DNA of 22,826 bases from an uncultured Eubacteriales bacterium (lineage in GTDB: Bacteria; Bacillota; Clostridia; Oscillospirales; Acutalibacteraceae). Shown piece after piece: positions 887 through 22,120 of this stretch (within the stretch, counting starts at the first letter, position 1; the number at the start of each line of letters is the position of its first letter). Position numbers and translations under genes: made by a program. The notes beneath the pieces are model-generated. The model worked only from the letters and a program-made list of their open reading frames with translations, had not been told where the DNA came from and ran no database searches. The stretch lies in the NCBI GenBank assembly GCA_900317765.1, contig ONID01000024.1:1-22826 (forward strand), given 5' to 3'.

Positions 887-1927
887 ATGATTGTCTACAA
901 ATGCAGGGAGATGACATTTTCGATGGGATATAAAGTATTTATTTCATTCAAGCGAAATGCGCTTGACGGAAGCGGTATTACAAGAGATTATGTATTAGCT
1001 GCCGATCTGCATAGATCATTAAAAGACAAAGGAATCGAAACCTTTTTCAGCGAAAAGGATTTATCAACGTCGGATTTTCGTGATGAAATAGACGAAGCAT
1101 TGGACGAAGCAGAGATATTGGTTGTTGTCGGAACCAATAAAGATCATCTGGAATCGAAAAACGTAAAGTACGAATGGCGTTCATTTCAGGAAGATTTATT
1201 AGGTGGATACAAACCCAACGGACAGATTTATACCTATATAGAGGGTATGAAGCAAGAGCAACTACCCAGGGCATTGCGTTTGAAGCAATCTTTTTTCTCT
1301 GAACAAAAAGAAACGCTCGTGCGATTTATAATGGACAATCTTGGAATAACGGATTCTCCTGCCAATGCAAAAACCACGCAAAACACAACCGCCAAACCAG
1401 CTTCTCAACCCGCCCCGCAACCGCAGCCCGTAAAAAAAACACCCCCCGCGCCGAGCAAGAGTTATCGCGTAGGCGACAGAATCCCCTTCGGTCAATATCC
1501 TGTGGAAAACGGAAGGGCGCTGCTGATTACCGACAAGCTGATTGATTATGTAGAGTATAATGAATCATATGCCAATGTCACATGGGAAACCTGCACACTA
1601 CGGAAATGGATGAACAGCTATTTCATCAGCAAGGCATTCAGCAGCAGTCAACAGGCGCAGATAGTTACAGTCACCAATCAGAACCCGAACAATCCGAAAT
1701 ATGGCACAAAAGGCGGCAACACCACGCAGGACAGAGTCTTTGCACTCAGCATAGATGAGGCAAAAAAATATTTTTCATCAGATTCCGACAGAAAAGCATA
1801 TACTTCGCCCGGCGACTCTAGTATTTTCGCTGCGGGTGTGTACGACCGTGGCAACATCGATCAGGACGGTTTCTTCGTCGATTACAATAACGTTGCTGTT
1901 CGCCCGGCTTTCTGGCTAAATCTATAA
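887..1927 (+). CDS. TIR-domain protein with a Pro/Gln-rich linker and a C-terminal putative ligand-binding domain (candidate DGR variable protein)
   Basis: N-terminus YKVFISFKR...AEILVVVGT...SKNVKYEWRSF is TIR-like. The linker is AKPASQPAPQPQPVKKTPPAPS. The C-terminal domain (VTWETCTLRKWMN...DRVFALSIDEAKKYF...SPG...AVRPAFWLNL) resembles, from memory, the family I recall as DUF6273. The true start may be ATG 911 or 923 (MGYKVFISF). Confidence 0.8.
   Translation: MIVYKCREMTFSMGYKVFISFKRNALDGSGITRDYVLAADLHRSLKDKGIETFFSEKDLSTSDFRDEIDEALDEAEILVVVGTNKDHLESKNVKYEWRSFQEDLLGGYKPNGQIYTYIEGMKQEQLPRALRLKQSFFSEQKETLVRFIMDNLGITDSPANAKTTQNTTAKPASQPAPQPQPVKKTPPAPSKSYRVGDRIPFGQYPVENGRALLITDKLIDYVEYNESYANVTWETCTLRKWMNSYFISKAFSSSQQAQIVTVTNQNPNNPKYGTKGGNTTQDRVFALSIDEAKKYFSSDSDRKAYTSPGDSSIFAAGVYDRGNIDQDGFFVDYNNVAVRPAFWLNL
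1814..1891 (+). other. Variable-region-like tract at the 3' end of the TIR gene
   Basis: In the 26 codons between SPG and AVRPAFW, 23 end in C/T by hand count (gac tct agt att ttc gct ... gat tac aat aac). This is the look of AAY template codons after adenine mutagenesis. No matching TR was found in the window. Confidence 0.3.
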
Positions 1928-1963
1928 TAAAAAATCTTCAAATCTAAAAATCATCACATCATT

Positions 1964-2245
1964 ATGCGCCGCAGGCGCATCTTTAATCCTTTTCGCCGCG
2001 AAGCGGCGCGAAAAATTGCAAAGGAACTTTGCTCCTATGTGATGACAGTTACACAGAAATCCCCCAAGCATTTTCGGTTTACCTTCGTGACACGAATGCA
2101 GAACCTTTCGCTTGATGTGATAGAAAATTTGTACCGCGCGAACGACACGTTTGTCAGCGGCAGAGACAGGGAAGCCATAAAACAAAGGCTTGACTATCAG
2201 CATAAAGCAATCACTTCACTGAAACTCCTCGCTTACATTTCCTAA
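1964..2245 (+). CDS. avd: Avd-like four-helix-bundle accessory protein, apparently C-terminally truncated
   Basis: SPKHFRFTFVTRMQNLSLDVIENLYRANDTFV matches the pattern of four-helix-bundle / Avd-like proteins that sit between DGR target genes and the RT. It is only 93 aa and ends abruptly (..LKLLAYIS*), where homologues I recall continue for another 25-40 aa. Confidence 0.55.
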   Translation: MRRRRIFNPFRREAARKIAKELCSYVMTVTQKSPKHFRFTFVTRMQNLSLDVIENLYRANDTFVSGRDREAIKQRLDYQHKAITSLKLLAYIS

Positions 2246-2248
2246 TCA

Positions 2249-2347
2249 CTCCCTCAGTCAGCTTCGCTGACAGCTCCCTCAAAGAGGGAGCCATGAATTG
2301 CCTCCCTCCGTGAGGGAAGTGGCACGATAGTGCCGGAGGGAGTTTTA
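2249..2347 (+). repeat. Hairpin-rich palindromic element (possible REP/MITE-like insert, terminator or structured RNA)
   Basis: CTCCCTC occurs 3 times (2249, 2274, 2302) and GAGGGA(G/A) 3 times (2284, 2312, 2336). Perfect hairpins are GTCAGC-ttc-GCTGAC (2257-2271) and GCTCCCTC-aaa-GAGGGAGC (2273-2291). The outer stem CTCCCTCCG/CGGAGGGAG (2302-2310 / 2334-2342) encloses GGCAC-gata-GTGCC and is followed by TTTT. Confidence 0.5.
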
Positions 2348-2402
2348 CCATAAGCCCTAAGTTGAAGATAAGATTACATAATTAAAATGAAGGTCTTATA
2401 AA

Positions 2403-3455
2403 ATGAGTGAATACGAAAATCTGTATGATTTTCAAAACCTGCTCAAAGCGCACAAAAGGGCGCGTCTCGGCAAGCAGGGCAAGCGGGAAGTCATTGATTT
2501 CGAGATGAACCTTTCTCAGAATCTGTGTGAAATGTCGGAAGAAATCAAAAACGAAAGCTATCATATCAGCGGCTACTACAGCTTTAATGTCTACGAGCCA
2601 AAAGAAAGAACCATTCACGCGCTGCACTACCGGGACAGGGTAGTGCAGCATTGTTTATGTGACGAGATCATAGCGCCGCTGTTTGAAAGGAATCTGATAT
2701 ACGACAATGCCGCCTGTCGCAAGGGTAAAGGAACGCTTTTTGCCATCAGAAGGCTGTCGGAATTTCTGCGCACCTTTTGCCGAGAACACGGCAACAAGGG
2801 TTATTTTTTGAAGTGCGACATCCGGAAATTCTTTGACAACATCGACCATGAGATTTTAAAGGATGTTCTGACAAGAAAGATTGCCGACACACAGGTGCTT
2901 GCGCTTTGCGAGAAAATCATTGACAGCTATGAAACCGCGCAGGGCAAGGGTCTTCCGCTCGGCAATCAGACAAGCCAATGGTTTGCGCTGATTTACCTCG
3001 ACGGATTCGACAGGCTTTGCAAGGAACAGCTTCACCTGCGTTTCTATACCAAATATATGGACGACATGATTATCGTGCATGAAAGCAAGGCGTATCTGCA
3101 CGATTGTCTTGCAAAAATGCGCGATTACGCCGAAGATGAACGTAAGCTGCAATTCAATCAAAAGACCCAGATATTCCCCGTCAAAAACGGCGTGGAATAT
3201 CTGGGATTTCGTTTTTCATTAAGCAAGTCCGGTGCGGTCATCAGGCGATTAAAGACATCATCGAAACTGAGATACAGAAGAAAATTAAGGTCATATATGC
3301 GGCTGTACAGAGATGGAAACATTGAACTTGAAGAAATACGGCAAAGTCTCTCCGGCTATCATGGGCATATGAAGCACGGCAGCACCTTTCATTTGAAGAA
3401 GAAAGCACTTTCATCCTTTTCTTTGAGACGGTCAGATGAATTTTCGGAATTATGA
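2403..3455 (+). CDS. Reverse transcriptase, DGR type
   Basis: YEPKERTIHALHYRDRVVQHCLCDEIIAPLFE, FLKCDIRKFFDNIDH, LPLGNQTSQWFALIYL (the DGR-typical [I/L]GxxxSQ instead of the SP of group II/retron RTs), YMDDMIIV, and C-terminal SLSGYHGHMKHGSTFHL. Layout and size (350 aa) resemble Bordetella phage bRT. Confidence 0.85.
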   Translation: MSEYENLYDFQNLLKAHKRARLGKQGKREVIDFEMNLSQNLCEMSEEIKNESYHISGYYSFNVYEPKERTIHALHYRDRVVQHCLCDEIIAPLFERNLIYDNAACRKGKGTLFAIRRLSEFLRTFCREHGNKGYFLKCDIRKFFDNIDHEILKDVLTRKIADTQVLALCEKIIDSYETAQGKGLPLGNQTSQWFALIYLDGFDRLCKEQLHLRFYTKYMDDMIIVHESKAYLHDCLAKMRDYAEDERKLQFNQKTQIFPVKNGVEYLGFRFSLSKSGAVIRRLKTSSKLRYRRKLRSYMRLYRDGNIELEEIRQSLSGYHGHMKHGSTFHLKKKALSSFSLRRSDEFSEL

Positions 3456-3495: not shown

Positions 3496-3842
3496 TCAGC
3501 CATCATTCAGCCCCGCCTTGATTTCGCTGCCGTCCTTGAATATCACGCGGATATCGTCCTTGCTGTAAACCACCATGTGATCCACCATGGTCATCCAGTC
3601 CTCCTCGCGGAATTCTGTCAACAGGTCACGTTCACGTAGCTGCCGGAGATACCGTAATCCGCGAATACGCCGGCGTATTCCCATTCGGGATTGCTCTGGA
3701 TGAGCGAACTGTAATAGCTCACCTGCGCCGAGAGCGAATGGCGCATACGCTCCGATTCCACGGAGACCCTCGCGTAAGCGGCGACCCGTTTTTTCTTTGG
3801 CAGAGTAGGGCAAGTATCGCTGATTTTTTCTATTGTTTTCAA
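3496..3842 (-). pseudogene. Large serine recombinase remnant (N-terminal ~70 aa joined to C-terminal ~40 aa, different frames)
   Basis: ORF 3618..3842 has the resolvase motif KRVAAYARVS...SLSAQVSYY...WEYAGVFADYGISG and then diverges. ORF 3496..3813 ends with ...EEDWMTMVDHMVVYSKDDIRVIFKDGSEIKA, typical of large serine recombinase C-termini. About 1.2 kb of the middle is missing. Confidence 0.75.
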
Positions 3843-5429: not shown

Positions 5430-6311
5430 TCATAATGCTTTTTTCAAATCGGCGCGGGTCTTGATGCCGACGATGGCGTCAGCGGCGAGGTGGTGCTTGC
5501 GCTGGAAGGACAGGACTGCCGCCTTCGTCAGTACGCCGAAGTGACCGTCGACGTCGAGCTTTTCTCCGGCAGCCTTGTTCAGGTGCCACTGCACCCACTT
5601 CACACCGTTGCCCCTTGCGCCGTAGCGGACAGCGGATTTCGGCTCCGCGTAGGGGCATTTGGCGGTCGGCTTGGAAGTCGGCGCGGTGGTTTCGTTCAGA
5701 GCGGCGGTTACCTTCTTGGCGAGGTCGCCCATGCGTGCATACAGCCAGTCGCCCGGACAGGATTTGTTGGCAAACCAGCGGTGAACCGTCAGTACCATCT
5801 CGTCCGGCTTGGGATTGTAGGTGAGCGATTTTGTCTTGTCCCCGAACCACAGCAGCTTCTTCTTGCCGTTGCGCTTGCAAATGTCGACGCAGAGCTTCAC
5901 AAGTGTTTCGTACACAACCGGCTTGAAGGCGTAGGGCGGCTTCGGGTCGTACGCGCATTCGATGGTGATTGCCCTCTGGTCGTTGGCGTTCGAGGACGAA
6001 CACCACGAACGGTTCTTTTCCTCCACATACAGTGCGACTGTGCCGTCAAGGGCAATGCCGTAATTGGACGACACTGCCCTTGTGCCGGAAAAGATGTCGC
6101 CCAGCCTTGCCGCCGTCACCTCAATGCTTGCCGTACTTCCCTCAGAATAGGTAATCGTCATGGTGTGCGTGGTGTAAATGTCATTGATGAGGTCACTCAG
6201 CTTCTCCGGGGTAGCAACTGTCCGGTCAACGGAAAGCAGGATATACTGGCTGCCATTGTAGATAAAGGTCGCGATGTCTCCTGCTCTGATCACGTCGGCC
6301 GCAATTGCCAC
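5430..6311 (-). CDS. N-acetylmuramoyl-L-alanine amidase-like lysin with a C-terminal peptidoglycan-binding domain; 5' end probably disrupted
   Basis: SSNYGIALDGTVALYVEEKNRSWCSSSNANDQRAITIECA...VHRWFANKSCPG is amidase_2-like. GNGVKWVQWHLN...LDVDGHFGVLTKAAVLSFQRKHHL is PG_binding_1-like. The ORF-track start is GTG, and the frame stays open upstream to 6359. Confidence 0.7.
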   Translation of the reverse strand: MAIAADVIRAGDIATFIYNGSQYILLSVDRTVATPEKLSDLINDIYTTHTMTITYSEGSTASIEVTAARLGDIFSGTRAVSSNYGIALDGTVALYVEEKNRSWCSSSNANDQRAITIECAYDPKPPYAFKPVVYETLVKLCVDICKRNGKKKLLWFGDKTKSLTYNPKPDEMVLTVHRWFANKSCPGDWLYARMGDLAKKVTAALNETTAPTSKPTAKCPYAEPKSAVRYGARGNGVKWVQWHLNKAAGEKLDVDGHFGVLTKAAVLSFQRKHHLAADAIVGIKTRADLKKAL

Positions 6312-6367
6312 ACCTCGATAGTAGATTGCCTTTGCGCCCTTACTGTTGATGTTGAGCGATCATCGGC

Positions 6368-6925
6368 ATGAAACGCGCCGACCGCCAAGCCTTAATCAGA
6401 GGAATGAATGTCGTTTACATCTATCATGACACAATTGACGAAGCCGGACATCTCGACAAGTCCATTTTCGGCGCGTGCATGGATGCAATTGATGAAATCA
6501 AAAACATGGTTCGCATTATCACCAACGAATTCGGCGGCATCAGTCTACAGGAGATGGTGGTGCCCGGTCATCGAATACCACTTTCTGCGCAACGACAGCA
6601 AAGAATACCAGCGCAACAAGAGCCAATACGATACAAAACCGGTGCCAGTCAGTCTTCTGTCGGCAAGCAGGAAGATCTGTAACATGATATTCTCGCTGAA
6701 TTTCTACCAGAAAGAGCCTGTTGGAGGCAATCGCGAGGCAGCCTCCTGTCAGGTCTATTCTGCCGACAGTAACGGACGGAAAATCAGCGATACACCGACG
6801 ATTATTGCTGACAAGACCATCGACAACGTGCAGAAGTGCAGGAGCGCATTTTCCGCTGCACCTTCAATCTGAAGCAGCTGTCATACAGCAATATGGCAGC
6901 CGAATACCTCATCATCACCGAATTA
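6368..6925 (+). pseudogene. pglZ: Remnant of a second, diverged pglZ (3' third; two frameshifts and a ~100-aa internal deletion)
   Basis: Across three frames it reads NVVYIYHDTIDEAGHLDKSIFGACMDAIDEIKNMVRIITNEFGG | ISLQEMVVP / VIEYHFLRNDSKEYQRNKSQYDTKPVPVSLLSASRKICNMIFSLNFYQKE... / QERIFRCTFNLKQLSY..EYLII. This is colinear with the intact PglZ at 17940-18753, with about three quarters of residues identical by eye. Confidence 0.8.
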
Positions 6926-7168: not shown

Positions 7169-7591
7169 ATGTCAGAGAATAAACAGACTGTGTTCAGGCA
7201 GAAGACGCTCGAGCGCATATCGTCACCGGAACAGCTTACGGACTATCTTCGCGTCACAAATCCGGGAATATGGGCGGTACTGGCCGCTGTCATCCTGCTG
7301 CTGGCAGGGTTATTCGCGTGGTCTACGGTGGGTACGCTTGAGACCACGGCTGACGCGACGGTTGTTGTCAGCGACAGTAGCGCACGTGTCATTATCACCG
7401 GAGCCGGGACACTGGAAGAAGGAATGCCCGTGCGGATAGCGGGACAGCAATACCGCATCGTCTCGACCGACACCGACGAATACGGAAGAATGACCGGCGA
7501 GGCGATGGTCGATCTGCCTGACGGCACATACCAGGGAGAAGTCGTTGTGGATAGCACAAGCCCCATCGATTTCCTGCTTGAAAGCAGGTGA
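7169..7591 (+). CDS. Short HlyD-like / NHLP-type bacteriocin-system secretion adaptor protein
   Basis: FRQKTLERISSPEQLTDYLRVTNPGIWAVLAAVILLLAG has the adaptor N-terminal motif plus a TM helix. SD AGAGGGGGA precedes ATG 7169, and the ORF-track start at 7142 is TTG. It is much shorter than classical HlyD. Confidence 0.7.
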   Translation: MSENKQTVFRQKTLERISSPEQLTDYLRVTNPGIWAVLAAVILLLAGLFAWSTVGTLETTADATVVVSDSSARVIITGAGTLEEGMPVRIAGQQYRIVSTDTDEYGRMTGEAMVDLPDGTYQGEVVVDSTSPIDFLLESR

Positions 7592-7598
7592 GCCGGAG

Positions 7599-9776
7599 AT
7601 GAGCGCAAATAAGGTCAGACCAACGCTGACGAGGGGCGTCGCCAAGGTTCCGGTCATCATGCAGCTTGAGGCGCTCGAGTGCGGCGCGGCGTCGCTCGCT
7701 ATGGTCATGGCGTATTACGGAAAGTGGGTGCCGCTGGAGCAGGTGCGCCTTGACTGCGGCGTGTCACGCGACGGGTCGAAGGCAAGTAATATCTATCGCG
7801 CCGCTGTGAACTACGGTTTTGACGTAAAGGCTTACAACATGACTCCCGAAGCCGTTAAGGAAAAAGCAAGCCTGCCCTGCATTATCCACTGGAACATGAA
7901 CCATTTTGTCGTTCTGGACGGTTTCCGCGGAAAAAATGTTTATATCAATGACCCTGCCAGAGGCGAGGTCAAGGTGAGCTGGGAAGAGTTCGACAGATCC
8001 TTTACCGGAGTCACCATCATTCCCGTACCGTCAGAGAACTTTGAGCCGAGCGGGAAACGCAGGAGCACGATCAATTTTGCCCGAAAGCGTCTGACAGGCG
8101 CGGGAGCGGCGGTAGTGTTCGTTATGTTGACCACGGCGATATCGTACCTGTTCGGGATAGCCAATTCCGTCACCTCACGCATATTCATGGATCGTCTGCT
8201 GACGGGGGTCAACAGGGAATGGCTGAATCCTTTTATCGGCGTGATGATGCTTCTTGCCGTGATACAGCTTGTAGTAGCGTGGGCACAGACGATATATTCG
8301 CTGAGGATCAACGGCAAAATGTCGGTGGTAGGTAACACATCGTATATGTGGAAGGTACTGCGCATGCCGATGGAGTTCTTCTCGCAGCGGCTTGCGGGCG
8401 ATATACAGTCGCGCGCGGAAATGAATGCCTCGATAGCGAGTACGCTTGTTAACACCTTTTCGCCGCTGGTGCTCAATACCGCTATGATGATATTCTACCT
8501 TGTGCTGATGCTTCGCCAGAGTCCGATGCTTACGCTGATCGGTATCGTTACGCTGGTGCTCAATATCGTTATGTCCCGCGTGATATCCAACAGACGTATC
8601 AACATCACGCGCGTGCAGATGCGTGATTCCGGAAAGCTGGAGTCCGCAACGGTCACGGGCATCGATATGATCGAGACCATAAAGGCAAGCGGAGCGGAAA
8701 ACGGCTTTTTCCAGAAATGGGCAGGCTATCAGGCGTCTGTCAACGCGCAGAATGTCAAGGCGTCGAGGGAGAACCGGTTTATCGGCATGATTCCCGCGTT
8801 CTTCTCTGCGCTCGCAAATTACGCTGTGCTGGTGATCGGAATTTACCTGACGATGAAGGGAAAGTTCAGTCTGGGTGCGGTGCTTATGTTCCAAGGTTTC
8901 TTAAGCTCCTTCATGTCCCCTGCTATGACACTTGTCGGCGCGGGACAGACAATACAGGAGATGCGCACGCAGATGGAGCGCGTCGAGGACGTTATGGAGT
9001 ACCCGGAGGACATGAATGTCTCCGAATGCCGGACGGAAACTGCCGAACTCTCAAAGCTGCGCGGGAATGTGGAGCTGAAAAACATCACCTTCGGGTATTC
9101 GAGGCTGGAAAAGCCACTGATCAACAACTTTTCGCTGACAATGAAAACGGGCGACCGCATCGCCCTTGTCGGCGGTTCGGGCTGCGGCAAATCCACTATA
9201 TCAAAGCTTGTCTCGGGATTGTATGAACCGTGGAGCGGCGAAATACTGTTTGACGGCAAGCCCCGCAGCGCTTATCCGCGTGAGGTCATGGTCGGCTCGC
9301 TCGCCGTTGTCGATCAGGATATCATTATGTTCGAGGACACCATCGCAAACAACATAAAGATGTGGGACAACTCGATACAGGACTTCGAGATGATACTGGC
9401 AGCACGCGACGCGCAGATACACGACGATATCACATCGCTTCCCGGCGGCTATCAGCATAAGCTGGTAAGCGGCGGAAAGAATCTCTCCGGCGGGCAGCGC
9501 CAGCGCATGGAAATAGCCCGCGTGCTCGCGCAGGATCCGACGATCATCATCCTTGATGAAGCCACTTCGGCACTTGACGCAAGGACGGAATACGAAGTGG
9601 TCAACGCCATACGCGACCGCGGCATCACCTGCATCGTAATCGCTCACCGCCTTTCCACCGTCCGCGACTGCGACGAAATCATCGTACTCGACCAAGGCAC
9701 CGTAGCCGAACGCGGCACCCACGACGAGCTGATGAAGCTGGGCGGAGCTTACGCTGATTTAGTGGCGAGTGAATAG
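7599..9776 (+). CDS. Peptidase-C39-containing ABC transporter (PCAT; NHLP-family bacteriocin export peptidase/permease/ATPase)
   Basis: The C39 domain is QLEALECGAASLAMVMAYYG ... IIHWNMNHFVVLDG ... INDPARG. It is followed by a 6-TM region and an NBD with GGSGCGKST, LSGGQRQR and IIILDEATSALD. The likely start is MSANK at 7599. Confidence 0.92.
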   Translation: MSANKVRPTLTRGVAKVPVIMQLEALECGAASLAMVMAYYGKWVPLEQVRLDCGVSRDGSKASNIYRAAVNYGFDVKAYNMTPEAVKEKASLPCIIHWNMNHFVVLDGFRGKNVYINDPARGEVKVSWEEFDRSFTGVTIIPVPSENFEPSGKRRSTINFARKRLTGAGAAVVFVMLTTAISYLFGIANSVTSRIFMDRLLTGVNREWLNPFIGVMMLLAVIQLVVAWAQTIYSLRINGKMSVVGNTSYMWKVLRMPMEFFSQRLAGDIQSRAEMNASIASTLVNTFSPLVLNTAMMIFYLVLMLRQSPMLTLIGIVTLVLNIVMSRVISNRRINITRVQMRDSGKLESATVTGIDMIETIKASGAENGFFQKWAGYQASVNAQNVKASRENRFIGMIPAFFSALANYAVLVIGIYLTMKGKFSLGAVLMFQGFLSSFMSPAMTLVGAGQTIQEMRTQMERVEDVMEYPEDMNVSECRTETAELSKLRGNVELKNITFGYSRLEKPLINNFSLTMKTGDRIALVGGSGCGKSTISKLVSGLYEPWSGEILFDGKPRSAYPREVMVGSLAVVDQDIIMFEDTIANNIKMWDNSIQDFEMILAARDAQIHDDITSLPGGYQHKLVSGGKNLSGGQRQRMEIARVLAQDPTIIILDEATSALDARTEYEVVNAIRDRGITCIVIAHRLSTVRDCDEIIVLDQGTVAERGTHDELMKLGGAYADLVASE

Positions 9777-9792
9777 GTGAGGGAGGAAAAAC

Positions 9793-12003
9793 ATGGGTTG
9801 GTTTGAAAACCAGATAGAAGAACGCCGCACCGCCGACCAGCAGCTTTTGGAGGACTCCTTCGTAAAAATTGCCGGAGTCGTGCTGGGTCAGCGTACTGCG
9901 CAAAAGATCAGTGATGACCGGATCGTCACGAAAAACGCTATCGACGAGATCATAAAATATTACCACGGTAAACCATCGGAGATCCCGGATTCCATAAAGA
10001 CCGTCGAAGAACAGCTCGACTACTGTCTGCGTCCGCATGCTATCATGCGGCGCGGCGTGGAGCTGACAAAGGGCTGGTACAGGGACGCTTACGGACCGAT
10101 GCTTGCCTTCACAAAAGAGGACGGAATGCCTGTCGCGCTGCTGCCCGGAACTGTTATAGGGTACCGGTACACCGACCCCAAGACCGGAGAGCGGAAGAAG
10201 CTGAACGCACGGACAGCCGGGCTGTTTGAAACGGACGCGATATGCTTCTACCGCCCGCTGCCGCAAAAGAAGCTTGGCATACCGGATCTTTTGCTTTACA
10301 TGAAGCGCTGCATGTCGCTCAGCGACGTCATTATGATCGTTGCCGCGACGCTGGCCGTTTCGCTGGTAGGTCTTATCATGCCGCGCATCACCAAAACGCT
10401 GACCGGTCCCGTGCTTGAAAGCGGGAAGGCAGCAGCTCTGATCGGGATATCCATATCTATTATATGCGTTTCGCTTTCCTCGCAGCTTATCGGCGGGGTA
10501 AAGAGCATGGTTCAAAGCAGACTCACATCCAAGACCTCTCTCGGCGTGCAGGCTTCGATGATGATGCGGCTGCTGTCTCTTCCGGCGAGCTTTTTCCGCA
10601 AGTACAGCCCCGGCGAGCTGAAAAGCCGCTCCATGTCGGTCAATCATCTCTGCTCCCTGCTGTTGAGTCTGGTTATGTCAACAGGTCTTACCTCGCTGAC
10701 CTCGCTGATATACGTGGGCCAGATATTCCGATTCGCACCTGCGCTTGTCATACCGTCGCTTATCATCATACTTGTGACGGTAGGCTTTTCGACCGTCACA
10801 TCGCTTATGCAGATACGTCTCAGCCGCAAAGAAATGGAGCAGAGCGCCAAGGAATCGGGCATGAGCTATGCAATGATAACCGGCGTGCAGAAGATCAAAC
10901 TCGCGGGAGCGGAAAAGCGCATATTCGCCAAGTGGTTAGGTCTCTACGCCGACGGCGCGGAACTTATATACAACCCGCCGTTATTCATCAAGATCAACGG
11001 CGTTATATCCACCGCCATCAGTCTTATATCCAATATTGTGATGTACTATATCGCGGTAAAAAGCGGTATAGGGCAGTCGTCGTATTTCGCTTTTACTTCC
11101 GCATACGGTATGCTCATGGGCGCGTTCATGTCAATATCGGGCATGGCGCTTTCAGCCGCGAGAATACGGCCGATGCTTGAAATGGCGGAGCCGTTCCTCA
11201 AAACGGAACCCGAGACAGCCGGAAACAAGGAAATAGTCACGGGCATATCCGGCAGAGTGGAGCTCGATCACGTTTCGTTCCGTTACAGTGAGGATACGCC
11301 CTATATCCTCAATGACCTTTCGCTCAAGGTAAGGCCGGGAGAGTATATCGCTGTGGTCGGCAGGACGGGCTGCGGCAAGTCAACGCTCGTGCGCCTGCTG
11401 CTCGGTTTTGAAAAACCGGAAAAAGGCGCGGTCTACTACGACGGCAGGGATATAAACGGTCTTGACCTGCAGTCGCTGCGCCGCAGGATCGGCACTGTCA
11501 CGCAAGACGCCGGACTGTTCCAAGGGAACATTTACTCCAATATAGTTATCTCCGCTCCGGAGCTGACGCTTGAAGACGCGTGGGAAGCGGCGGAAAAGGC
11601 GGGGATCGCCGACGACATACGCGCTATGCCTATGGGAATGCATACGATGATATCCGAGGGGCAGGGCGGTATTTCCGGCGGACAGCGCCAGCGCATCATG
11701 ATCGCGCGCGCTATCGCCCCAAAGCCAAAACTGCTGATGTTTGACGAGGCGACCAGCGCTCTCGACAACAAGACCCAGCGGCAGGTGTCCGAGGCGCTTG
11801 ACGCTATGGGCTGTACCCGCATCGTTATCGCGCACCGTCTTACCACGATACGCCACTGCGACAGGATACTTGTGCTTGACGGCGGCCATATCATCGAGGA
11901 CGGTACATACGAACAGCTTATAGAAAAAAACGGCTTCTTTGCCAAAATGGTCGAGCGCCAGAGGCTCGATGTCGGGAATTGGGTTGCAGGTGTTAGGTGG
12001 TAG
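9793..12003 (+). CDS. Second ABC transporter permease/ATPase of the NHLP-type export system (no peptidase domain)
   Basis: A long N-terminal non-peptidase domain is followed by a TMD and an NBD with GRTGCGKST, ISGGQRQR and LLMFDEATSALD. Confidence 0.9.
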   Translation: MGWFENQIEERRTADQQLLEDSFVKIAGVVLGQRTAQKISDDRIVTKNAIDEIIKYYHGKPSEIPDSIKTVEEQLDYCLRPHAIMRRGVELTKGWYRDAYGPMLAFTKEDGMPVALLPGTVIGYRYTDPKTGERKKLNARTAGLFETDAICFYRPLPQKKLGIPDLLLYMKRCMSLSDVIMIVAATLAVSLVGLIMPRITKTLTGPVLESGKAAALIGISISIICVSLSSQLIGGVKSMVQSRLTSKTSLGVQASMMMRLLSLPASFFRKYSPGELKSRSMSVNHLCSLLLSLVMSTGLTSLTSLIYVGQIFRFAPALVIPSLIIILVTVGFSTVTSLMQIRLSRKEMEQSAKESGMSYAMITGVQKIKLAGAEKRIFAKWLGLYADGAELIYNPPLFIKINGVISTAISLISNIVMYYIAVKSGIGQSSYFAFTSAYGMLMGAFMSISGMALSAARIRPMLEMAEPFLKTEPETAGNKEIVTGISGRVELDHVSFRYSEDTPYILNDLSLKVRPGEYIAVVGRTGCGKSTLVRLLLGFEKPEKGAVYYDGRDINGLDLQSLRRRIGTVTQDAGLFQGNIYSNIVISAPELTLEDAWEAAEKAGIADDIRAMPMGMHTMISEGQGGISGGQRQRIMIARAIAPKPKLLMFDEATSALDNKTQRQVSEALDAMGCTRIVIAHRLTTIRHCDRILVLDGGHIIEDGTYEQLIEKNGFFAKMVERQRLDVGNWVAGVRW

Positions 12004-17530: not shown

Positions 17531-17857
17531 TTAAAATGTATTAATTATTTCTATATATTCATATTCAAGCTGCAAAATACACCAGATGCCACCACAAAGC
17601 AATCTGTCATACTTCTCAGGATATTCGTTCGAAACATGAATGCCTTTCAATCCAAGATTGGAAAATTCTGCTTCATAGGCATTCTTTTTTATATTCAGAT
17701 TGACTGTTACATTAGCCCCTTCCTTGATTTTTTTCGTAAGGTCTTTGCGAACAATTTTTCCGTCAAAATGCTGACGTAATTTTTCTTTTATTATCTCGCG
17801 GACATTTGCAGACGTGTCTGTTATTTGATCCATCTTTCTTTCCTCCGCTGATATCAA
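17531..17857 (-). pseudogene. brxL: brxL remnant (BREX Lon-like protease; internally deleted and 3'-truncated stub)
   Basis: MDQITD...KLRQHFDGKIVRKDLTKKIKEGANV and ...KKNAYEAEFSNLGLKGIHVSNEYPEKYDRLLCGGIWCILQLEY match the BrxL N-terminal region as I recall it. The ORF is only 108 aa where several hundred are expected. It directly follows and overlaps the pglZ stop, and the likely start is ATG 17833 after GGAGGA. Confidence 0.7.
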
Positions 17858-20469
17858 CTAAAGAATCCGTAATCATCCACCGCAAAGGCAATGTCGATCT
17901 GAAATTCTTCTCGGGATAGCTGTTTTCCCTGCTCATCAACTATGATGAGGTAATATGCTTCGGTGTTGTTGTATGACAGCGGCTTGAGATTGAAGGTGCA
18001 GCGGAAGATGCGCTCATGCACATCGTCGGTGGTCTTATCGGCGATAATCGTGGCGGTATCGCTGACCATCTTTCCATTGCTATCAGTGAAATACGCACGA
18101 CAGGTGGTTGCCACGCGGACGCCGCCGACGGCTTCTTTCTGGTAGAAATCCAGCGAGAATATCATGTTGCATATCTTCCGGCTTGCCGACAGAAGACTAA
18201 CCGTCACCGGCTTGGTATCGTATTGGCTCCTGTTGCGCTTGTATTCTTTGCTGTCGTTGCGCAGGAAGTGGTAATCGATAACAGGCACGACCATTTCCTG
18301 AAGACTGATACCGCCGTGGACAAAATTCAGACCGCCGCCTTTCATCTTGATGCGGATGCTTTCCCTCGGTGCGAAGCCTTCGTATTCGGAGTTGCCGTCG
18401 AGGAATTTTATCGGAAGAAGATACTGCGGCTGTGAGCGTTGATGAAGAAAATGCATGATGGCGTAACGTCTGCCGATTTCGATATCCTGATCGCTCTCGG
18501 TGGATTTGTCAACCTTTTCATCCTCTTTCAAGGGACTGTAGGTGTAGAGGAAGCCGTGGTCGGAAGTAATAATGATATTAACTCCACTAAATTCATTAGT
18601 GATTATTCGTACCAGATTTTTAAGTTCGTCAATTGCCTCGTCACAGGCAGCGAAGATGGACTTGTCGATATGACCCGCTTCGTCGATAGTGTCATGGTAG
18701 ATATAAACGACTTTCTTTCCTTTGATTAGTGGTTGACGTTCGGGTCCTTTCATGTCAATGATGTCCTTGTATTTCAGAGCGACACTCTGGGAATCCGCGC
18801 TTTTAAGAAGCTTGTCGCGGTTGTTTGCCTCGGTGGACTGTCCGTCCGCAAGGACTGCCAGCCGTTCTGTCTTTCCGGATTTCAGTTCAACGGATAATTC
18901 TTTGTGAGGCAGCAGCGCAGCCATGCCGAATTTCGTAATGGTCGGGAATATGCCACAGACGCTGTCGAGCGTCACCTTGCTCTGGGTTTCGCGCCGAAGC
19001 TGCTCGGAGAGTTCCACCGCGACTTCGTATCGCATTGCGTCGGAGATAATGACATACACCTTGCTGTCGGAACGGGCAATTCTGTCGTGGTAGAAATCGC
19101 TCTGTCGCGGTACTTCCAGAATCCGTCCGTAATCCCGCATTTGTTCGGCGCAGACGTCCGACCAGTTTCTGCCGAGTTCTCCGAGGAACCAACCCGAATA
19201 CAAGCCTTCAACCTTTTCCATGACTGTTGCAAAGAGATCAGACAATTCGGAATGATAGGTCTTCAGACTCGCTGCATACGCCTTATGGAATTCCCTGTAA
19301 TAGGTATCCATGACATAATAGGTAGATGTGTATTCCTTCCAGACCTTCTCCGGCAGTGCGTTGTGGAATCCGGCGGCGTGGGTCTTGTAAAAAGCCTGCA
19401 TATTGGCAAGCTGTAAAATGCCTTCATAGAAGTTTTTCAAAGGTTCATACCACACACAAGTGCGCCGCTTTTCCACGGTCTTAGTGATGACGTTCACGTC
19501 AATCAGATGATCGCCGATATCCTTCATCAATTTGATCAGAATGATTTCATGGACACACGGGAATACCTCGGTGCCGAGCAGATCAGATATTTCAAGATTC
19601 ATGAACCGTTTGGGAAGGTTCAACTCATTTTCAAGAAGCTCTGCAATCGAGTGTATGCTTTCGGAATCCTCGCTGTGCATCCATTCTGAGATAAAATCGT
19701 AGCAATACGCCTGATGTGCGGCGGAAATCAAGTCATTCAGCCCCGCAAGATATTCCTGCCGCATGGTTCGCGTAGATGCAGTGAGAAGCAGGTGCGCCGC
19801 CAGCCGTTTCAGATCCGGATGATTAACATCATTTTCAATATAGCCGGAACGCTGCTCCACCATGTGCCAGAATATCTCATCTATTCCGTATTTGATGAAT
19901 TCCTGATAGACTGCATTTTCTTCGATATTCAGACCTTTTTGCAGCACGGATTTAATGACGGCGTTCGGATTGACTGCCTTCAATCCGGCAAGTACCGCCA
20001 TGATAGCCACCTGCAATTGTGACAGCTTGACAGGAACGCACATTGCTGACAACTTGTTCCGGCGCAATTCCGAATTGAAGAATTTGCGATATTTTTTTAT
20101 ACCACTTCGGAGATCAACTGTTTGTGGTATACCCATTTCATCCATCCAGCTGGAAATCCGGTCGGCGCGATAATCTTCGCTGTATAGTTCAATATCCAGC
20201 AGCCAGTTATCCTCCTGCGACTCATAAGCAATCGGGCAGTAAAGAAGATAATCGCTCTCAGTGTCGTCCTTGTTCAGCAGCTTTTTGACATAAAAATAGT
20301 TGTTTCCGGTCAGAGCAACGACTTTCACGCCGTCAATCTGAATCTCGTCTAATCTATCGGTATATTCTCTGTCCTCGTCTTTCCATACGATTATGCGCCG
20401 CTTATAGAATTCCGGCAGCGGTTCCGCAAATCGTCGGGCGAGGTCTTGTTGTATTTTTTCGGTGTCCAT
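17854..20469 (-). CDS. pglZ: BREX type-1 alkaline-phosphatase-superfamily protein PglZ
   Basis: This is an ~870-aa protein containing VVYIYHDTIDEAGH...VNIIITSDHGFLY (PglZ domain). The likely start is MDTEKIQQDL at 20469 after AGGAGA, and the ORF track extends it to 20541. Confidence 0.92.
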   Translation of the reverse strand: MDTEKIQQDLARRFAEPLPEFYKRRIIVWKDEDREYTDRLDEIQIDGVKVVALTGNNYFYVKKLLNKDDTESDYLLYCPIAYESQEDNWLLDIELYSEDYRADRISSWMDEMGIPQTVDLRSGIKKYRKFFNSELRRNKLSAMCVPVKLSQLQVAIMAVLAGLKAVNPNAVIKSVLQKGLNIEENAVYQEFIKYGIDEIFWHMVEQRSGYIENDVNHPDLKRLAAHLLLTASTRTMRQEYLAGLNDLISAAHQAYCYDFISEWMHSEDSESIHSIAELLENELNLPKRFMNLEISDLLGTEVFPCVHEIILIKLMKDIGDHLIDVNVITKTVEKRRTCVWYEPLKNFYEGILQLANMQAFYKTHAAGFHNALPEKVWKEYTSTYYVMDTYYREFHKAYAASLKTYHSELSDLFATVMEKVEGLYSGWFLGELGRNWSDVCAEQMRDYGRILEVPRQSDFYHDRIARSDSKVYVIISDAMRYEVAVELSEQLRRETQSKVTLDSVCGIFPTITKFGMAALLPHKELSVELKSGKTERLAVLADGQSTEANNRDKLLKSADSQSVALKYKDIIDMKGPERQPLIKGKKVVYIYHDTIDEAGHIDKSIFAACDEAIDELKNLVRIITNEFSGVNIIITSDHGFLYTYSPLKEDEKVDKSTESDQDIEIGRRYAIMHFLHQRSQPQYLLPIKFLDGNSEYEGFAPRESIRIKMKGGGLNFVHGGISLQEMVVPVIDYHFLRNDSKEYKRNRSQYDTKPVTVSLLSASRKICNMIFSLDFYQKEAVGGVRVATTCRAYFTDSNGKMVSDTATIIADKTTDDVHERIFRCTFNLKPLSYNNTEAYYLIIVDEQGKQLSREEFQIDIAFAVDDYGFFS

Positions 20470-20544
20470 TTTGAAATGTCTCCTGTTTTTCAATGAATAA
20501 TCAGAAACTGATAACGAAAAAAATTGTAATGATTCACTCAAACA

Positions 20545-21111
20545 TTATGTAACAGATGGAATAACAGGGTTTATTGGAAATTGACCATAATAACTATCTG
20601 CATTCCATTCATTAATACTCATAACACTGACCGAGTCAATAAGTTTCACGCCCGAGGTAAACTGTTCCTGTAGATGAAAAGGAAGACGCTTTTTTAGTCG
20701 ATTTCGTAACATTCGTCTTGACGTGGAATCGCCTTTAGGGTATTCTAATACAAAAATGTATTGTATTGGTTTATCCTTTCCCATCAATCGTAAATAATGA
20801 AGGGAGTCATAATATTTTCTTACAATCTTATTGAATTTATTATTTTCAAATGGATCATATGGTGTTGTGTGATTTGAATGTGCAAGGGCTTCGGCAACAT
20901 TTGCATTTTTGTATTCAATAAGAAGTATATATTCCTCTGTCTCAATCACAAAATCCGCATCAGCCAAAATATCAGGAAGGCCGCAACTGTGATAGATATT
21001 ATGCATTTCGTCACTTGCCCAAATTGCTTTTCCACAGTTTATCCCATATTTATTTTTTTCTTCATACAATATTTGGGGCATTTCTTTTCCCTCACAGATC
21101 ATATATTTCAT
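20545..21111 (-). CDS. Small hypothetical protein with a PD-(D/E)xK nuclease-like motif (partner of the upstream ATPase)
   Basis: GLPDILADADFVIETEEYILLIEYKN reads as P-D ... E-x-K on alternating beta-strand-like segments. I recognise no family. Start options are 21111 or 21102 (overlapping the ATPase 3' end) or 21081 (SD GAGGGA, 10 nt after the ATPase stop). The gene is very AT-rich. Confidence 0.7.
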   Translation of the reverse strand: MKYMICEGKEMPQILYEEKNKYGINCGKAIWASDEMHNIYHSCGLPDILADADFVIETEEYILLIEYKNANVAEALAHSNHTTPYDPFENNKFNKIVRKYYDSLHYLRLMGKDKPIQYIFVLEYPKGDSTSRRMLRNRLKKRLPFHLQEQFTSGVKLIDSVSVMSINEWNADSYYGQFPINPVIPSVT

Positions 21112-22120
21112 CCAACAGCTTATTAAATGCTGTTATGATTGGATTGTTTTTTAAATCAGCAAATCTATCTGTTTTTTCATATTGAATATTATTATCGTTT
21201 CCATTGCGTGATAAAGAGTGGAATACAATACTGTCTTCTAAAGATTTTTTTACCTCAAAATAGCTTGCAATCATATAATCATGTGTTGAAATAAAAACTT
21301 GAACTCCTCTACGTTGTAATTCCAGAAGCATTTCAACAATAATCGAAAGGTATGTTGGGTTAATGTTTGCTTCTGGTTCATCCCAAAATAGAATTGACCC
21401 GTTTTCCAACGTTCCATTTTTTACTAACTGCCACAATAACGCCATTTTACGAATACCTTCAGCAATAAGGTTAAATTCTTGCTTGGAATTGCCACTTTTC
21501 AAGTAAAACTCATCACGTTTCTCGTCATACCAAACCGTACCATGCGTCATTTCTTGAATTCTTTTCAACATAGCTTCTTTTGTGGTATTATTTCTGCCTA
21601 CAGAAATATCAATCTTTGCTGCGTTAATAATATCTAAGTATGTGTCATCAAAGCGAACATTGTTTTTTTCTGTTGCGGCACTTAAATTATAACTGTGAGA
21701 CAATATTTCTTTTGCAGGAATAAAGATACTGCTAACACCTGAAAATGAGTCTTCCCATCCACTTTCTCCGGTTACCTCCGCTTCCCATTTTTTTGTTTTT
21801 CCATGAAAAGAGGCAGTTAATACACGATCTTGAGATGATTCTTTTTCTCCTGCTGTTATCCGAATCATTGCACTGTGATTACCTTGACGTCTCGTAATTA
21901 ATCTTGAAATTTTATAATCATCGGGGAGCATAGTTAAAACTAATTTATGAGGAAATGAAATCTTTGGATCGACACTTTGACATGCTGAATATAAGGCTTT
22001 TAGAAGATGTGTTTTACCCGTTCCATTTTCTCCAATAATTACATTTATTCCTGTTCCGAATTCAATACTAATATTTTCAAAAACAGTGTAGTTTTCAAAT
22101 TTTATTTTTTTAATTATCAT
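21092..22120 (-). CDS. Compact ABC-type (AAA_15/AAA_21-like) ATPase
   Basis: Walker A GENGTGKT (K36), signature-like NLIAEGIRKMA, Walker B ILFWDEPE and H-loop ISTHD are present. It is 342 aa with no coiled-coil insert. SD AAGAGGTG is present, and the start lies 15 nt after the pglX stop. Confidence 0.88.
   Translation of the reverse strand: MIIKKIKFENYTVFENISIEFGTGINVIIGENGTGKTHLLKALYSACQSVDPKISFPHKLVLTMLPDDYKISRLITRRQGNHSAMIRITAGEKESSQDRVLTASFHGKTKKWEAEVTGESGWEDSFSGVSSIFIPAKEILSHSYNLSAATEKNNVRFDDTYLDIINAAKIDISVGRNNTTKEAMLKRIQEMTHGTVWYDEKRDEFYLKSGNSKQEFNLIAEGIRKMALLWQLVKNGTLENGSILFWDEPEANINPTYLSIIVEMLLELQRRGVQVFISTHDYMIASYFEVKKSLEDSIVFHSLSRNGNDNNIQYEKTDRFADLKNNPIITAFNKLLDEIYDL

What the first reader, a model, noticed from the sequence alone, without database searches (positions are those of the whole stretch)
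887..3455. TIR effector fused to a DGR-style diversifiable C-terminus, followed by Avd-like and DGR-type RT genes, with no template repeat visible
Seen in sequence:
- The gene order is TIR-domain protein, then an Avd-like four-helix-bundle ORF, then an RT.
- The RT has DGR hallmarks: LPLGNQTSQ (SQ rather than SP), YMDD, and bRT-like N- and C-termini.
- The TIR protein ends ...SPG-[26 codons]-AVRPAFWLNL. In those 26 codons (1814-1891), 23 are NNY by hand count, unlike the rest of the gene. That is what AAC/AAT-rich template codons look like after adenine-specific mutagenesis.
- A perfect GC-rich 7-bp/3-nt-loop hairpin (ATGCGCC-gca-GGCGCAT, 1964-1980) lies 37 nt after the stop. This recalls the hairpin/cruciform found downstream of DGR variable regions.

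Established knowledge: DGRs consist of a target VR, Avd, TR and RT. TIR domains are NADase or signalling effectors in Thoeris, CBASS, retron-TIR and other immune systems.

Inference: a hypervariable binding domain coupled to a TIR effector would be a programmable-sensor immune or toxin protein. I am not aware of this pairing being characterised.

Caveat: I could not find any sequence in the window resembling a TR for 1780-1920. The Avd-like ORF also looks C-terminally truncated, so the cassette may be frozen or decayed, or the RT may serve a different template.
Basis: partly seen in the sequence, partly recalled or inferred. Interest (0 to 1): 0.8.

Follow-up and report, generated by a model that had tools for sequence, protein, structure and literature searches.

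The report
Decayed DGR cassette with TIR-lectin target
This is a real diversity-generating retroelement whose target protein joins a TIR "death/signalling" domain to a hypervariable lectin-like binding domain, but in this lineage the template repeat and half of the helper gene have been replaced by a piece of repeat element, so this copy is broken.

Summary
Window 887-1927 encodes TIR_2 plus DUF6273, a C-type-lectin-like domain known as a DGR target. Window 2403-3455 is a DGR-type RT, 1964-2245 is an Avd remnant, and no TR exists in the 22.8-kb contig.

Relatives explain the gap. L009 (RT 91% identical), L014, L015, L042 and L013 have the same cassette intact, with a 130-aa Avd and a TR whose mismatches to the VR fall almost only at adenines.

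In the window's lineage (at least 15 contigs from several studies), 141 nt (2245-2385) stand where L009 has 492 nt. Those 492 nt hold the last 41 avd codons, the TR and the spacer. The 141 nt are part of a multi-copy, strongly folded repeat element.

Across this TR-less lineage the flanks are identical, yet four VR alleles differ at 33 sites. Of these, 31 are adenines in relatives' TRs (p~2e-18). So the VR was A-mutagenised by a lineage-specific TR that is now missing or unlinked.

The window copy also carries three private deletions (48, 63 and 61 nt). They remove two core lectin strands, including WWWLR, and the avd start.

TIR-containing DGR targets were already reported computationally in cyanobacteria and Thiohalocapsa. 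The minimal TIR-DUF6273 family in Clostridia appears undescribed. Verdict: a decayed member of a new variant of a known kind.

The parts
887..1927 (+). DGR target gene: TIR_2 domain, P/Q-rich linker, then DUF6273 (C-type-lectin-like) domain ending in the VR. The likely true start is the ATG at 923 (MGYKVF...).
   Evidence: Pfam. The gene call P0121 (334 aa) starts at MGYKVF. A model of the intact allele P0122 has pLDDT 83.6. Its TIR half matches SARM1 TIR (Foldseek 1e-5) and its C-terminal half matches the DUF6273 N-terminal domain of T. ramosa IgA peptidase 9qa6 (3.6e-9).
926..1342 (+). TIR domain. The invariant glutamate (VKYEW, residue 96 of the 346-aa ORF) is the candidate catalytic residue.
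   Evidence: E96 is invariant in 58 homologues. The fold matches NADase TIRs. Equivalence to SARM1 E642 is inferred, not checked residue by residue.
1501..1502 (+). Junction of a window-private 48-nt in-frame deletion. It removes QGANGEMQPLEWRVLA, most of predicted strand 212-223 of the lectin-like domain.
   Evidence: Alignments to L003, L029 and L031, which are otherwise 100% identical.
1804..1805 (+). Junction of a window-private 63-nt in-frame deletion abutting the 5' end of the VR. It removes TDYAHKKGYDQKDLSDWWWLR, including the nearly invariant WWLR strand and the 5' end of the TR-homologous stretch.
   Evidence: W340, W341, L342 and R343 are at least 90% conserved in the family.
1805..1910 (+). 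Remaining TR-homologous stretch of the variable region. The hypervariable codons are 1814-1891. The conserved 3' end GTTGCTGTTCGCCCGGCTT (1892-1910) is IMH-like.
   Evidence: Four VR alleles sit on identical backbones, and 31 of 33 variable sites are adenines in relatives' TRs (Fisher p 1.9e-18). The TR and VR 3' ends differ in L042, as expected for IMH versus IMH*.
1964..1980 (+). GC-rich 7-bp/3-nt-loop hairpin downstream of the VR, preceded by AATCT-rich repeats (1911-1963). It is a candidate DGR target-recognition hairpin/cruciform.
   Evidence: It is conserved in the family with compensatory stem changes. It is also retained next to orphan targets that have lost avd, TR and RT (L005, L040).
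1990..2014 (+). Second hairpin (CGCCGC-gaa-GCGGCG). In the undeleted alleles it is followed by a T-run. It is a likely terminator of the target gene.
   Evidence: The assignment is an inference from its shape.
2017..2018 (+). Junction of a window-private 61-nt deletion that removed the avd RBS and start codon.
2018..2245 (+). avd pseudogene remnant (AKELCSY...LLAYIS*). It corresponds to residues ~17-89 of the 130-aa Avd of relatives. The ORF listed as 1964-2245 gains a false N-terminus.
   Evidence: Weak bAvd match. The full-length Avd P0271 is 93% identical and matches NCBIfam DivGenRetAVD at E 4e-12, below that model's cutoff.
2245..2385 (+). 141-nt filler, a partial copy of a multi-copy structured repeat element. 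It stands where L009 has 492 nt: the last 41 avd codons, the TR and the spacer.
   Evidence: Breakpoints and alignment. A second, inverted copy with terminal inverted repeats interrupts a gene upstream (L031:240-360). Predicted fold -64.5 kcal/mol, z -6.8. No Rfam family matches.
2403..3455 (+). DGR-type reverse transcriptase, intact (350 aa).
   Evidence: The best solved relative is RT 8ub7, which I take to be the Bordetella phage DGR RT (E 8e-44, full length). Group II and retron RTs score about 1e-12. Relatives 83-91% identical sit in cassettes with TR/VR pairs. The identical protein occurs on 4 other metagenome contigs.
3496..3842 (-). Remnants of a large serine recombinase (74-aa N-terminal piece and 105-aa C-terminal piece). 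They mark a former mobile-element context.
   Evidence: Weak Resolvase match. At the same place L029 has two intact recombinases of 529 and 407 aa.

Best explanation
The locus is a degenerate diversity-generating retroelement. The ancestral layout is still intact in close relatives: a TIR-linker-DUF6273 target with a C-terminal VR, a downstream hairpin, a 130-aa avd, the TR, a spacer and the RT. The RT-Avd complex copied TR RNA with adenine-specific errors, and the cDNA overwrote the VR.

In the window's lineage, a fragment of a multi-copy structured repeat element replaced the 3' third of avd, the whole TR and the spacer. The RT therefore has no cis template and no intact Avd, and the VR is most likely frozen. 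The avd remnant then decayed in different ways in different strains. In the window copy three more deletions hit the target's lectin core and the avd start.

Shown: the architecture, the replacement, A-patterned VR polymorphism and the extra deletions.

Inferred: that homing has stopped. Also inferred is the target's original function, namely a cytosolic ligand sensor in which binding by the diversified lectin-like domain triggers TIR NADase or signalling activity, as in other TIR immune effectors.
For: Components are identified.

Intact relatives with TR/VR pairs:
- L009: TR 2223-2346 against VR 1514-1637. About 22 mismatches lie at TR adenines and 2 lie elsewhere.
- L014, L015, L013 and L042.

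The replacement:
- Window 2245-2385 stands where L009 has 2053-2544.
- The same junction is found in every lineage contig seen: L001-4, L029-39, and the truncated Avd proteins P0269 and P0270.
- The filler is a repeat element with another copy upstream.

Signs of decay:
- A 1-nt frameshift at the avd start in L003-type alleles.
- A 61-nt deletion in the window.
- An RT split into 135 aa plus 215 aa in one variant.
- The same VR allele recurs in different samples and studies: L031=L032=L033 and L029=L030. This fits frozen alleles.

Wider pattern: independent complete loss of avd, TR and RT next to retained TIR-DUF6273 targets (L005/L007, L040/L041).

No TR with the lineage's marker bases was found in GTDB genomes, JGI metagenomes, IMG/VR or called TR ORFs.
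Against: Four full VR alleles, plus a fifth partial one, sit on backbones that all share the TR-less junction. These backbones show 0 substitutions in 927-1038 nt of the target outside the VR and 0/157 in the avd-RT intergenic stretch (2246-2402) that contains the filler.

If the replacement happened once, the VR alleles arose after it. That would need a TR and an Avd supplied in trans. Otherwise the VR alleles or the deletion were moved between strains by recombination. Mosaic patches exist, in the RT 3' end at 3287-3454 and in the L004 avd region, but such a transfer was not shown for the VR.

The RT is still intact and identical across many samples. That could mean it is still used, or only that the loss is recent.

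The window's three private deletions come from a single MAG contig and could be assembly errors.
Confidence: 0.62

Rival explanations
1. Split DGR that is still active. The VR at 1805-1910 is a live target that is diversified in trans by a TR and a full-length Avd encoded elsewhere in the genome. Those could use their own RT or this RT. The local avd remnant and the missing TR would then be irrelevant.
For: At least four VR alleles differ at 18-24 of 78 positions on backbones that are otherwise identical. All share the TR-less junction.

Window, L003 and L001 have 0/1058 RT differences but different VRs.

The IMH-like end and the downstream hairpin are intact and conserved.

Remote targets and TRs 'elsewhere in the genome' are known for other DGRs (PMC7159879, PMC7517822). 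L013 shows one TR serving two targets.
Against: No TR carrying the lineage markers (GCT at the 9th codon, NNT at the 11th) was found in any searchable collection or among called TR ORFs.

The TRs of co-occurring cassettes (L009, L014, L015, L042) have the wrong marker bases.

Identical VR alleles recur across samples.

The local avd, one RT copy and, in the window, the target itself are decaying.

ENA and Logan assemblies, where this lineage lives, could not be scanned at the DNA level. The negative result is therefore weak.
Confidence: 0.3
2. The RT has been repurposed. It now works with the structured 141-nt element immediately upstream as a new non-coding RNA partner, for example as a defence RT or retron-like system paired with the TIR effector. 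It no longer works as a DGR.
For: The RT is intact and conserved although the TR is gone.

The upstream element folds very stably, z -6.8.

RT-plus-TIR defence pairings are known from established knowledge of retron-TIR systems and defence RTs. I did not check this in the literature here.
Against: The element is a generic multi-copy repeat that is also found inside an unrelated gene.

The RT matches no retron or DRT model at its cutoff: Drt3a 81 bits against 200, retron 48 against 235.

The RT is 83-91% identical to RTs of working DGR cassettes. One lineage member has a split RT.

Orphan targets persist without any RT.
Confidence: 0.05
3. The locus is not DGR-related. On this view the NNY bias and the hairpin are chance features or generic features of the domain family.
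For: No TR in the window.
Against: Variable sites coincide with TR adenines of relatives, p 1.9e-18. Intact TR/VR pairs exist in relatives. The RT is closest to the DGR RT structure 8ub7. There is an Avd remnant.
Confidence: 0.01

Closest known systems
Canonical DGRs (Bordetella phage BPP-1 type: target VR, Avd, TR, RT) with C-type-lectin-fold targets
   Same: The RT is closest to the solved structure 8ub7, which I take to be the BPP-1 DGR RT. There is an Avd four-helix-bundle gene. The VR sits at the C-terminus of a CLec-like domain. TR codons in relatives are AAY-rich. TR/VR differences are adenine-specific. A GC-rich hairpin lies downstream of the VR.
   Different: In this lineage the TR, the spacer and one third of avd are missing. 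The locus is chromosomal or on a decayed mobile element, and no relative was found in the phage collections. The target carries an enzymatic TIR domain instead of being a tail fibre or surface protein.
DUF6273-type DGR targets of gut Firmicutes phages (tentaclins; Faecalibacterium prophage targets)
   Same: The same Pfam domain, with the VR mapping to the C-terminus of DUF6273 and a CLec-like fold (PMC10743442, PMC11792537).
   Different: Those are phage structural or receptor-binding proteins with Ig-like or tail-fibre domains. Here DUF6273 is fused to an N-terminal TIR domain through a disordered linker, with no signal peptide or TM segment in this lineage.
DGR-diversified conflict-system sensors with TIR effectors in multicellular bacteria (Thiohalocapsa PB-PSB1 DGR2 target CHAT+TIR+CLec; clade 5D STAND-NTPase targets with N-terminal TIR; cyanobacterial variable proteins with TIR-like domains)
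   Same: A DGR-variable CLec domain sits on the same polypeptide as a TIR effector, read as an antigen sensor coupled to a death or signalling effector (PMC10907252, PMC7517822, PMC7159879).
   Different: Those targets are large multidomain proteins (STAND NTPase, CHAT, vWA/MoxR ternary systems) in Proteobacteria and Cyanobacteria. This family is a minimal ~380-aa two-domain protein with no NTPase, found in Clostridia MAGs, one of them from goat abomasum. The RT clade relationship was not tested.
TIR immune effectors (Thoeris ThsB, SARM1-like NADases, SPARTA TIR-APAZ, CBASS TIR-SAVED)
   Same: TIR fold with an invariant glutamate. The structural best matches are NADase TIRs.
   Different: No Thoeris, CBASS or pAgo partner genes are present. 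PADLOC matches are marginal: ThsB E 0.004 and SAVED_TIR 7e-5. The sensor here is a lectin-like hypervariable domain.

Membership tests
Diversity-generating retroelement (DGR) | Reverse transcriptase of the DGR clade (I/LGxxxSQ motif, YxDD, bRT-like) | tested here: met
   LPLGNQTSQ and YMDD are present. The best PDB relative, 8ub7, aligns over the full length at E 8e-44, against about 1e-12 for group II and retron RTs. RTs 83-91% identical sit in cassettes with TR/VR pairs. No formal phylogeny was built.
Diversity-generating retroelement (DGR) | TR/VR repeat pair whose differences fall at TR adenines, with the TR near the RT | tested here: not met
   No TR on the 22,826-nt contig. The TR-bearing segment is replaced. 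The feature is met in relatives L009, L013, L014, L015 and L042.
Diversity-generating retroelement (DGR) | Accessory variability determinant (Avd), intact | tested here: not met
   Only residues ~17-89 of a 130-aa Avd remain, and the start and RBS are deleted.
Diversity-generating retroelement (DGR) | Adenine-patterned hypervariability confined to the VR in natural populations | tested here: met
   31 of 33 variable sites among 4 alleles lie at TR-adenine positions, with 0 differences in 927-1038 flanking nt of the gene.
Diversity-generating retroelement (DGR) | Target-recognition elements at the VR 3' end (IMH, downstream hairpin/cruciform) | tested here: inconclusive
   A conserved GC-rich 3' end and a hairpin with compensatory changes are present. 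Their function in homing cannot be tested here.
Diversity-generating retroelement (DGR) | Ongoing mutagenic homing | not testable with these tools
   This needs read pile-ups or experiments. The indirect evidence conflicts (see best explanation and first rival).
C-type-lectin-fold DGR variable protein (DUF6273 type) | DUF6273/CLec-like domain with the VR at its C-terminus ending ...VRPAxWL | tested here: met
   Pfam DUF6273 E 1e-22. The model matches the DUF6273 domain of 9qa6. The literature links DUF6273 to the CLec fold. The window copy lacks two core strands.
TIR-domain NADase/signalling effectors | TIR fold | tested here: met
   TIR_2 E 2e-8. Foldseek matches SARM1, RUN1 and SPARTA TIR domains at E 1e-5 to 1e-3.
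TIR-domain NADase/signalling effectors | Catalytic glutamate | tested here: inconclusive
   E96 (VKYEW) is invariant in 58 homologues. Structural superposition onto SARM1 E642 was not inspected residue by residue.
TIR-domain NADase/signalling effectors | NAD+ cleavage or signal production | not testable with these tools
   A biochemical assay is needed.
Known TIR defence systems (Thoeris, CBASS, retron-TIR, SPARTA) | Diagnostic partner genes or model matches | tested here: not met
   PADLOC gives only marginal hits: ThsB E 0.004 and SAVED_TIR 7e-5. No ThsA, cyclase, pAgo or msr/msd is present. The RT falls below the retron and DRT cutoffs.

The most novel reading that the evidence does not exclude
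The TIR-linker-DUF6273 proteins of Clostridia are a minimal, NTPase-free 'programmable' immune sensor-effector family. A DGR-diversified lectin-like domain directly gates a TIR NADase. Some members carry a TM segment that gives a Toll-like-receptor topology.

In the window's lineage the VR is still being rewritten in trans by an unlinked TR and Avd. That would make it a split DGR whose RT stays beside the target while the template lives elsewhere.
Probability: 0.25. Interest if true: 0.75.

Novelty: new variant of a known kind. Interest (0 to 1): 0.45.

Why it matters
DGRs are the only known natural system of targeted protein hypermutation in prokaryotes. What cellular DGRs diversify, and why, is still largely open.

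A compact protein that joins a DGR-variable binding domain directly to a TIR effector would be the simplest candidate yet for an 'adaptive-like' antigen sensor in bacteria. At about 380 aa it would be easy to test.

More than 100 clusters at 90% identity carry this architecture in Clostridia metagenomes. The family shows every stage from intact cassette to orphan, frozen target. It is therefore a natural series for studying how hypermutation modules are lost once a useful variant is fixed.

The specific window, however, holds a broken copy. Its value is as a pointer to the intact relatives such as L009, L014 and L015.

Tried and rejected
1. TR search inside the window, with exact and inverted repeats and an adenine-tolerant sliding comparison: nothing found.

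2. TR/VR pattern scans with N at all adenine-derived positions:
- IMG/VR: no hits.
- GTDB genomes: only the VRs of orphan TIR-DUF6273 genes L005 and L007, plus two chance hits in Acidimicrobiia.
- JGI metagenomes with a lineage-specific pattern: no hits.
- JGI metagenomes with a general pattern: two family VRs (L024, L025) and ten chance hits.

3. Looked for an intact version of the lineage.
- Via near-identical RTs: all cluster members examined are TR-less.
- Via the Avd N-terminal part: the best full-length Avd is the L009 type at 93%. Lineage-identical hits are all truncated at LLAYIS.

4. Looked for the lineage TR among called TR ORFs: four members, none with the lineage marker bases. L042 is an L009-type cassette.

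5. Rfam on 1850-2500: only a chance snoRNA hit below threshold. The filler is not a known RNA family.

6. Phage collection BLAST: only two short low-complexity linker matches.

7. TRs of L009, L014, L015 and L042 as trans donors: rejected, because they carry GCC and AAC where all lineage VRs have GCT and NNT.

8. Self-templating from the VR: rejected, because the spacer and priming region is absent and the VRs still retain many adenines.


Full report
**What is in the window**

Three ORFs lie in a row on the + strand.
- 887-1927 (346 aa) matches Pfam TIR_2 (aa 17-103) and DUF6273 (aa 208-345).
- 1964-2245 (93 aa) gives a weak bAvd match covering only profile positions 6-49 of 107.
- 2403-3455 (350 aa) matches RVT_1.

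The RT contains LPLGNQTSQ and YMDD. Its best solved relative by far is the 328-aa RT of PDB 8ub7, which aligns over the full length at E 8e-44. From my own knowledge this is the Bordetella phage DGR RT. Group II and retron RTs score about 1e-12. No NCBIfam or PADLOC retron or DRT model reaches its cutoff.

The 26 codons at 1814-1891 are 23/26 NNY, against 48% NNY in the rest of the gene (p 2e-5). The 7-bp/3-nt hairpin is at 1964-1980. No TR-like copy of the VR exists anywhere on the contig, even when mismatches at adenines are allowed. The window is a whole 22,826-nt MAG contig.

**What relatives show**

The identical RT occurs on other metagenome contigs. RTs at 91%, 88%, 83% and 70% identity lie in complete cassettes.

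L009 encodes, in order:
- a 383-aa TIR_2+DUF6273 target;
- a 130-aa Avd;
- a TR (L009:2223-2346) that matches the VR (1514-1637), with about 22 mismatches at TR adenines and 2 elsewhere;
- the RT.

L014, L015, L042 and L013 also have clean TR/VR pairs. L013 has two targets, one of them SEFIR/TIR-DUF6273. The family is therefore a bona fide DGR family whose target is a TIR-DUF6273 protein. DUF6273 is already described as a C-type-lectin-like DGR target domain with the VR at its C-terminus (PMC10743442, PMC11792537).

**What happened to the TR**

Alignment of the window with L009 shows collinear homology up to the avd codons ...LLAYIS. Homology resumes 17 nt before the RT start codon. In between, the window has 141 nt (2245-2385) where L009 has 492 nt. 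Those 492 nt hold the last 41 avd codons, the TR and about 200 nt of spacer.

The 141 nt are a partial copy of a repeat element.
- A second, inverted copy with terminal inverted repeats (CACTATCCACAACTTA) interrupts a gene about 1 kb upstream of the target in L031 and L032.
- Contigs of this lineage tend to end at these copies.
- The element folds into a very stable multi-hairpin structure (-64.5 kcal/mol, z -6.8).
- It matches no Rfam family.

Every member of the lineage that I could retrieve has the same junction. These are L001-L004, L029-L039, and the truncated Avd proteins P0269 and P0270, from at least four studies. No full-length Avd with the lineage's sequence exists in the protein collection.

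**Further decay**

- L003-type alleles carry a 1-nt frameshift at the avd start.
- One variant has the RT split into 135 aa and 215 aa.
- The serine recombinases downstream are intact in L029. In the window they are reduced to remnants at 3496-3842.
- The window alone has three extra deletions in an otherwise identical sequence: 48 nt after 1501, 63 nt after 1804 and 61 nt after 2017.

In the AlphaFold model of the undeleted allele P0122 (pLDDT 83.6), the first deletion removes most of strand 212-223. The second removes the strand holding the nearly invariant WWLR motif (340-345) and the 5' end of the TR-homologous stretch. The third removes the avd RBS and start. As a result, the ORF listed from 1964 has a spurious N-terminus that begins inside the hairpin. 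Whether these three deletions are real or assembly errors cannot be decided from one contig.

**The VR really is hypervariable and adenine-patterned**

Among TR-less lineage members, substitutions are distributed as follows:
- the target outside the VR has 0 substitutions in 927-1038 nt;
- the avd-RT intergenic stretch (2246-2402) that contains the filler has 0/157;
- the intergenic-plus-avd region has 0-8 per 116-379 aligned nt (0-3 between most pairs);
- RT differences are confined to a mosaic 3' patch at 3287-3454.

Yet the 78-nt VR differs at 18-24 positions between the four full alleles: window, L003, L029=L030, and L031=L032=L033. L001 is a fifth, partial allele. Of the 33 variable sites, 31 coincide with adenines in the TRs of relatives (Fisher p 1.9e-18).

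All alleles share two non-adenine marker bases (GCT and NNT) that none of the observed TRs has. A lineage-specific TR must therefore have existed, and its sequence can be inferred.

**The open point**

All these alleles sit on the same TR-less backbone. Two readings are possible.
- Diversification preceded the loss, and recombination later spread the deletion or shuffled the VRs. Mosaic patches show that recombination does occur.
- A TR and Avd elsewhere in the genome still serve this VR in trans.

I could not find such a TR in GTDB genomes, JGI metagenomes, IMG/VR or called TR ORFs. However, the ENA and Logan assemblies that hold this lineage cannot be scanned at the DNA level.

Evidence for a frozen VR:
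- identical VR alleles recur in different samples and studies;
- the avd remnant, one RT copy and the window's target are visibly decaying;
- the same outcome occurred independently elsewhere. L005/L007 and L040/L041 keep the TIR-DUF6273 gene, its VR and both downstream hairpins but have lost avd, TR and RT. L040 retains only the first ~25 nt of avd.

I therefore put about 0.6 on 'frozen/decayed' and about 0.3 on 'served in trans'.

**The target protein**

The model has three parts:
- an N-terminal TIR domain (residues ~14-152), whose best structural matches are the NADase TIRs of SARM1, plant TIR domains and SPARTA;
- a disordered P/Q-rich linker (157-190);
- a C-terminal domain matching the DUF6273 N-terminal domain of the T. 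ramosa IgA peptidase.

A glutamate (E96, VKYEW) is invariant in 58 homologues. There is no signal peptide or TM segment in this lineage. Some family members (P0130, P0150, P0157) do have a hydrophobic segment in the linker, which implies a TIR-inside, lectin-outside topology.

The most likely ancestral function is a ligand sensor whose diversified lectin-like surface triggers TIR activity, probably through induced oligomerisation. This is inferred from architecture only.

**The downstream hairpin**

It is kept even beside orphan targets. This fits the DGR target-recognition hairpin known from BPP-1 (established knowledge). It is not a functional test.

**Comparison with the literature**

TIR domains in DGR targets have been reported computationally:
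- the Thiohalocapsa PB-PSB1 DGR2 target (CHAT+TIR+CLec);
- N-terminal TIR effectors on STAND-NTPase targets (PMC10907252);
- TIR-like domains in cyanobacterial variable proteins (PMC7517822);
- DGR links to conflict systems (PMC7159879).

The pairing is therefore not new in principle. I found no paper on the minimal TIR-DUF6273 architecture. That architecture is abundant: more than 100 clusters at 90% identity in Clostridia metagenomes.

**Verdict**

This is a genuine DGR-derived locus and a new variant of a known kind. The copy in this window is a degenerate relic. The intact relatives are the interesting objects.

Noticed in passing
window 17854-20541 (-), and 6359-6915 versus 17942-18762: An 895-aa PglZ-domain protein (BREX/Pgl-type defence component) lies at 17854-20541. 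A partial inverted duplicate of it, about 80% identical, lies at 6359-6915 and includes a 104-aa PglZ fragment ORF at 6368-6682.
   Followed up: partly
window 21092-22120 (-) and 20545-21111 (-): An AAA_21/AAA_15 (AbiEii-like/OLD-like) ATPase gene sits next to an unannotated 188-aa ORF beside pglZ. This looks like a possible defence island at the right end of the contig.
   Followed up: no
window 3496-3842 (-); L029:3785-6582: The window holds large serine recombinase remnants directly downstream of the RT. L029 has two intact recombinases (529 and 407 aa) at the same place, which suggests the cassette once sat on a mobile element.
   Followed up: partly
window 2245-2385; L031:240-360 (-); left end of the window: A multi-copy structured repeat element of about 140 nt has terminal inverted repeats (CACTATCCACAACTTA) and hairpins that vary by compensatory changes between copies. 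Assemblies of this lineage break at it. It matches no Rfam family.
   Followed up: partly
P0130, P0150, P0157; L040:6001-7296: Some TIR-DUF6273 homologues carry a ~22-aa hydrophobic segment in the linker, giving a Toll-like-receptor-like topology. P0130 is an orphan in a chromosomal context. It keeps both downstream hairpins and only the first ~25 nt of avd.
   Followed up: partly
L015:3801-4802: An IS1595-family transposase is inserted between the TR and the RT of an otherwise intact related DGR. This is another sign that these cassettes are hit by mobile DNA.
   Followed up: no
L013:1-8842: A related DGR (RT 70% identical) has one TR and two targets: a protein of more than 1457 aa upstream and a SEFIR/TIR_2-DUF6273 protein downstream. 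Both VRs match the TR.
   Followed up: partly
window 3287-3454; L004 region equivalent to window 2176-2218: Substitutions between lineage members are clustered in patches, at the RT 3' end and in L004's avd. In L004 the patch carries L009-type bases. This indicates recombination among co-occurring cassettes.
   Followed up: partly
window 7545-12003 (+): Two tandem ABC transporters are present, the first with a Peptidase_C39 domain in relatives' annotation (bacteriocin-type exporter). An Amidase_2/PG_binding_1 lysin-like gene lies at 5430-6311 (-).
   Followed up: no
P0237: A homologue combines a protein kinase domain with DUF6273. The same variable domain is therefore fused to other signalling effectors in this group.
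   Followed up: no
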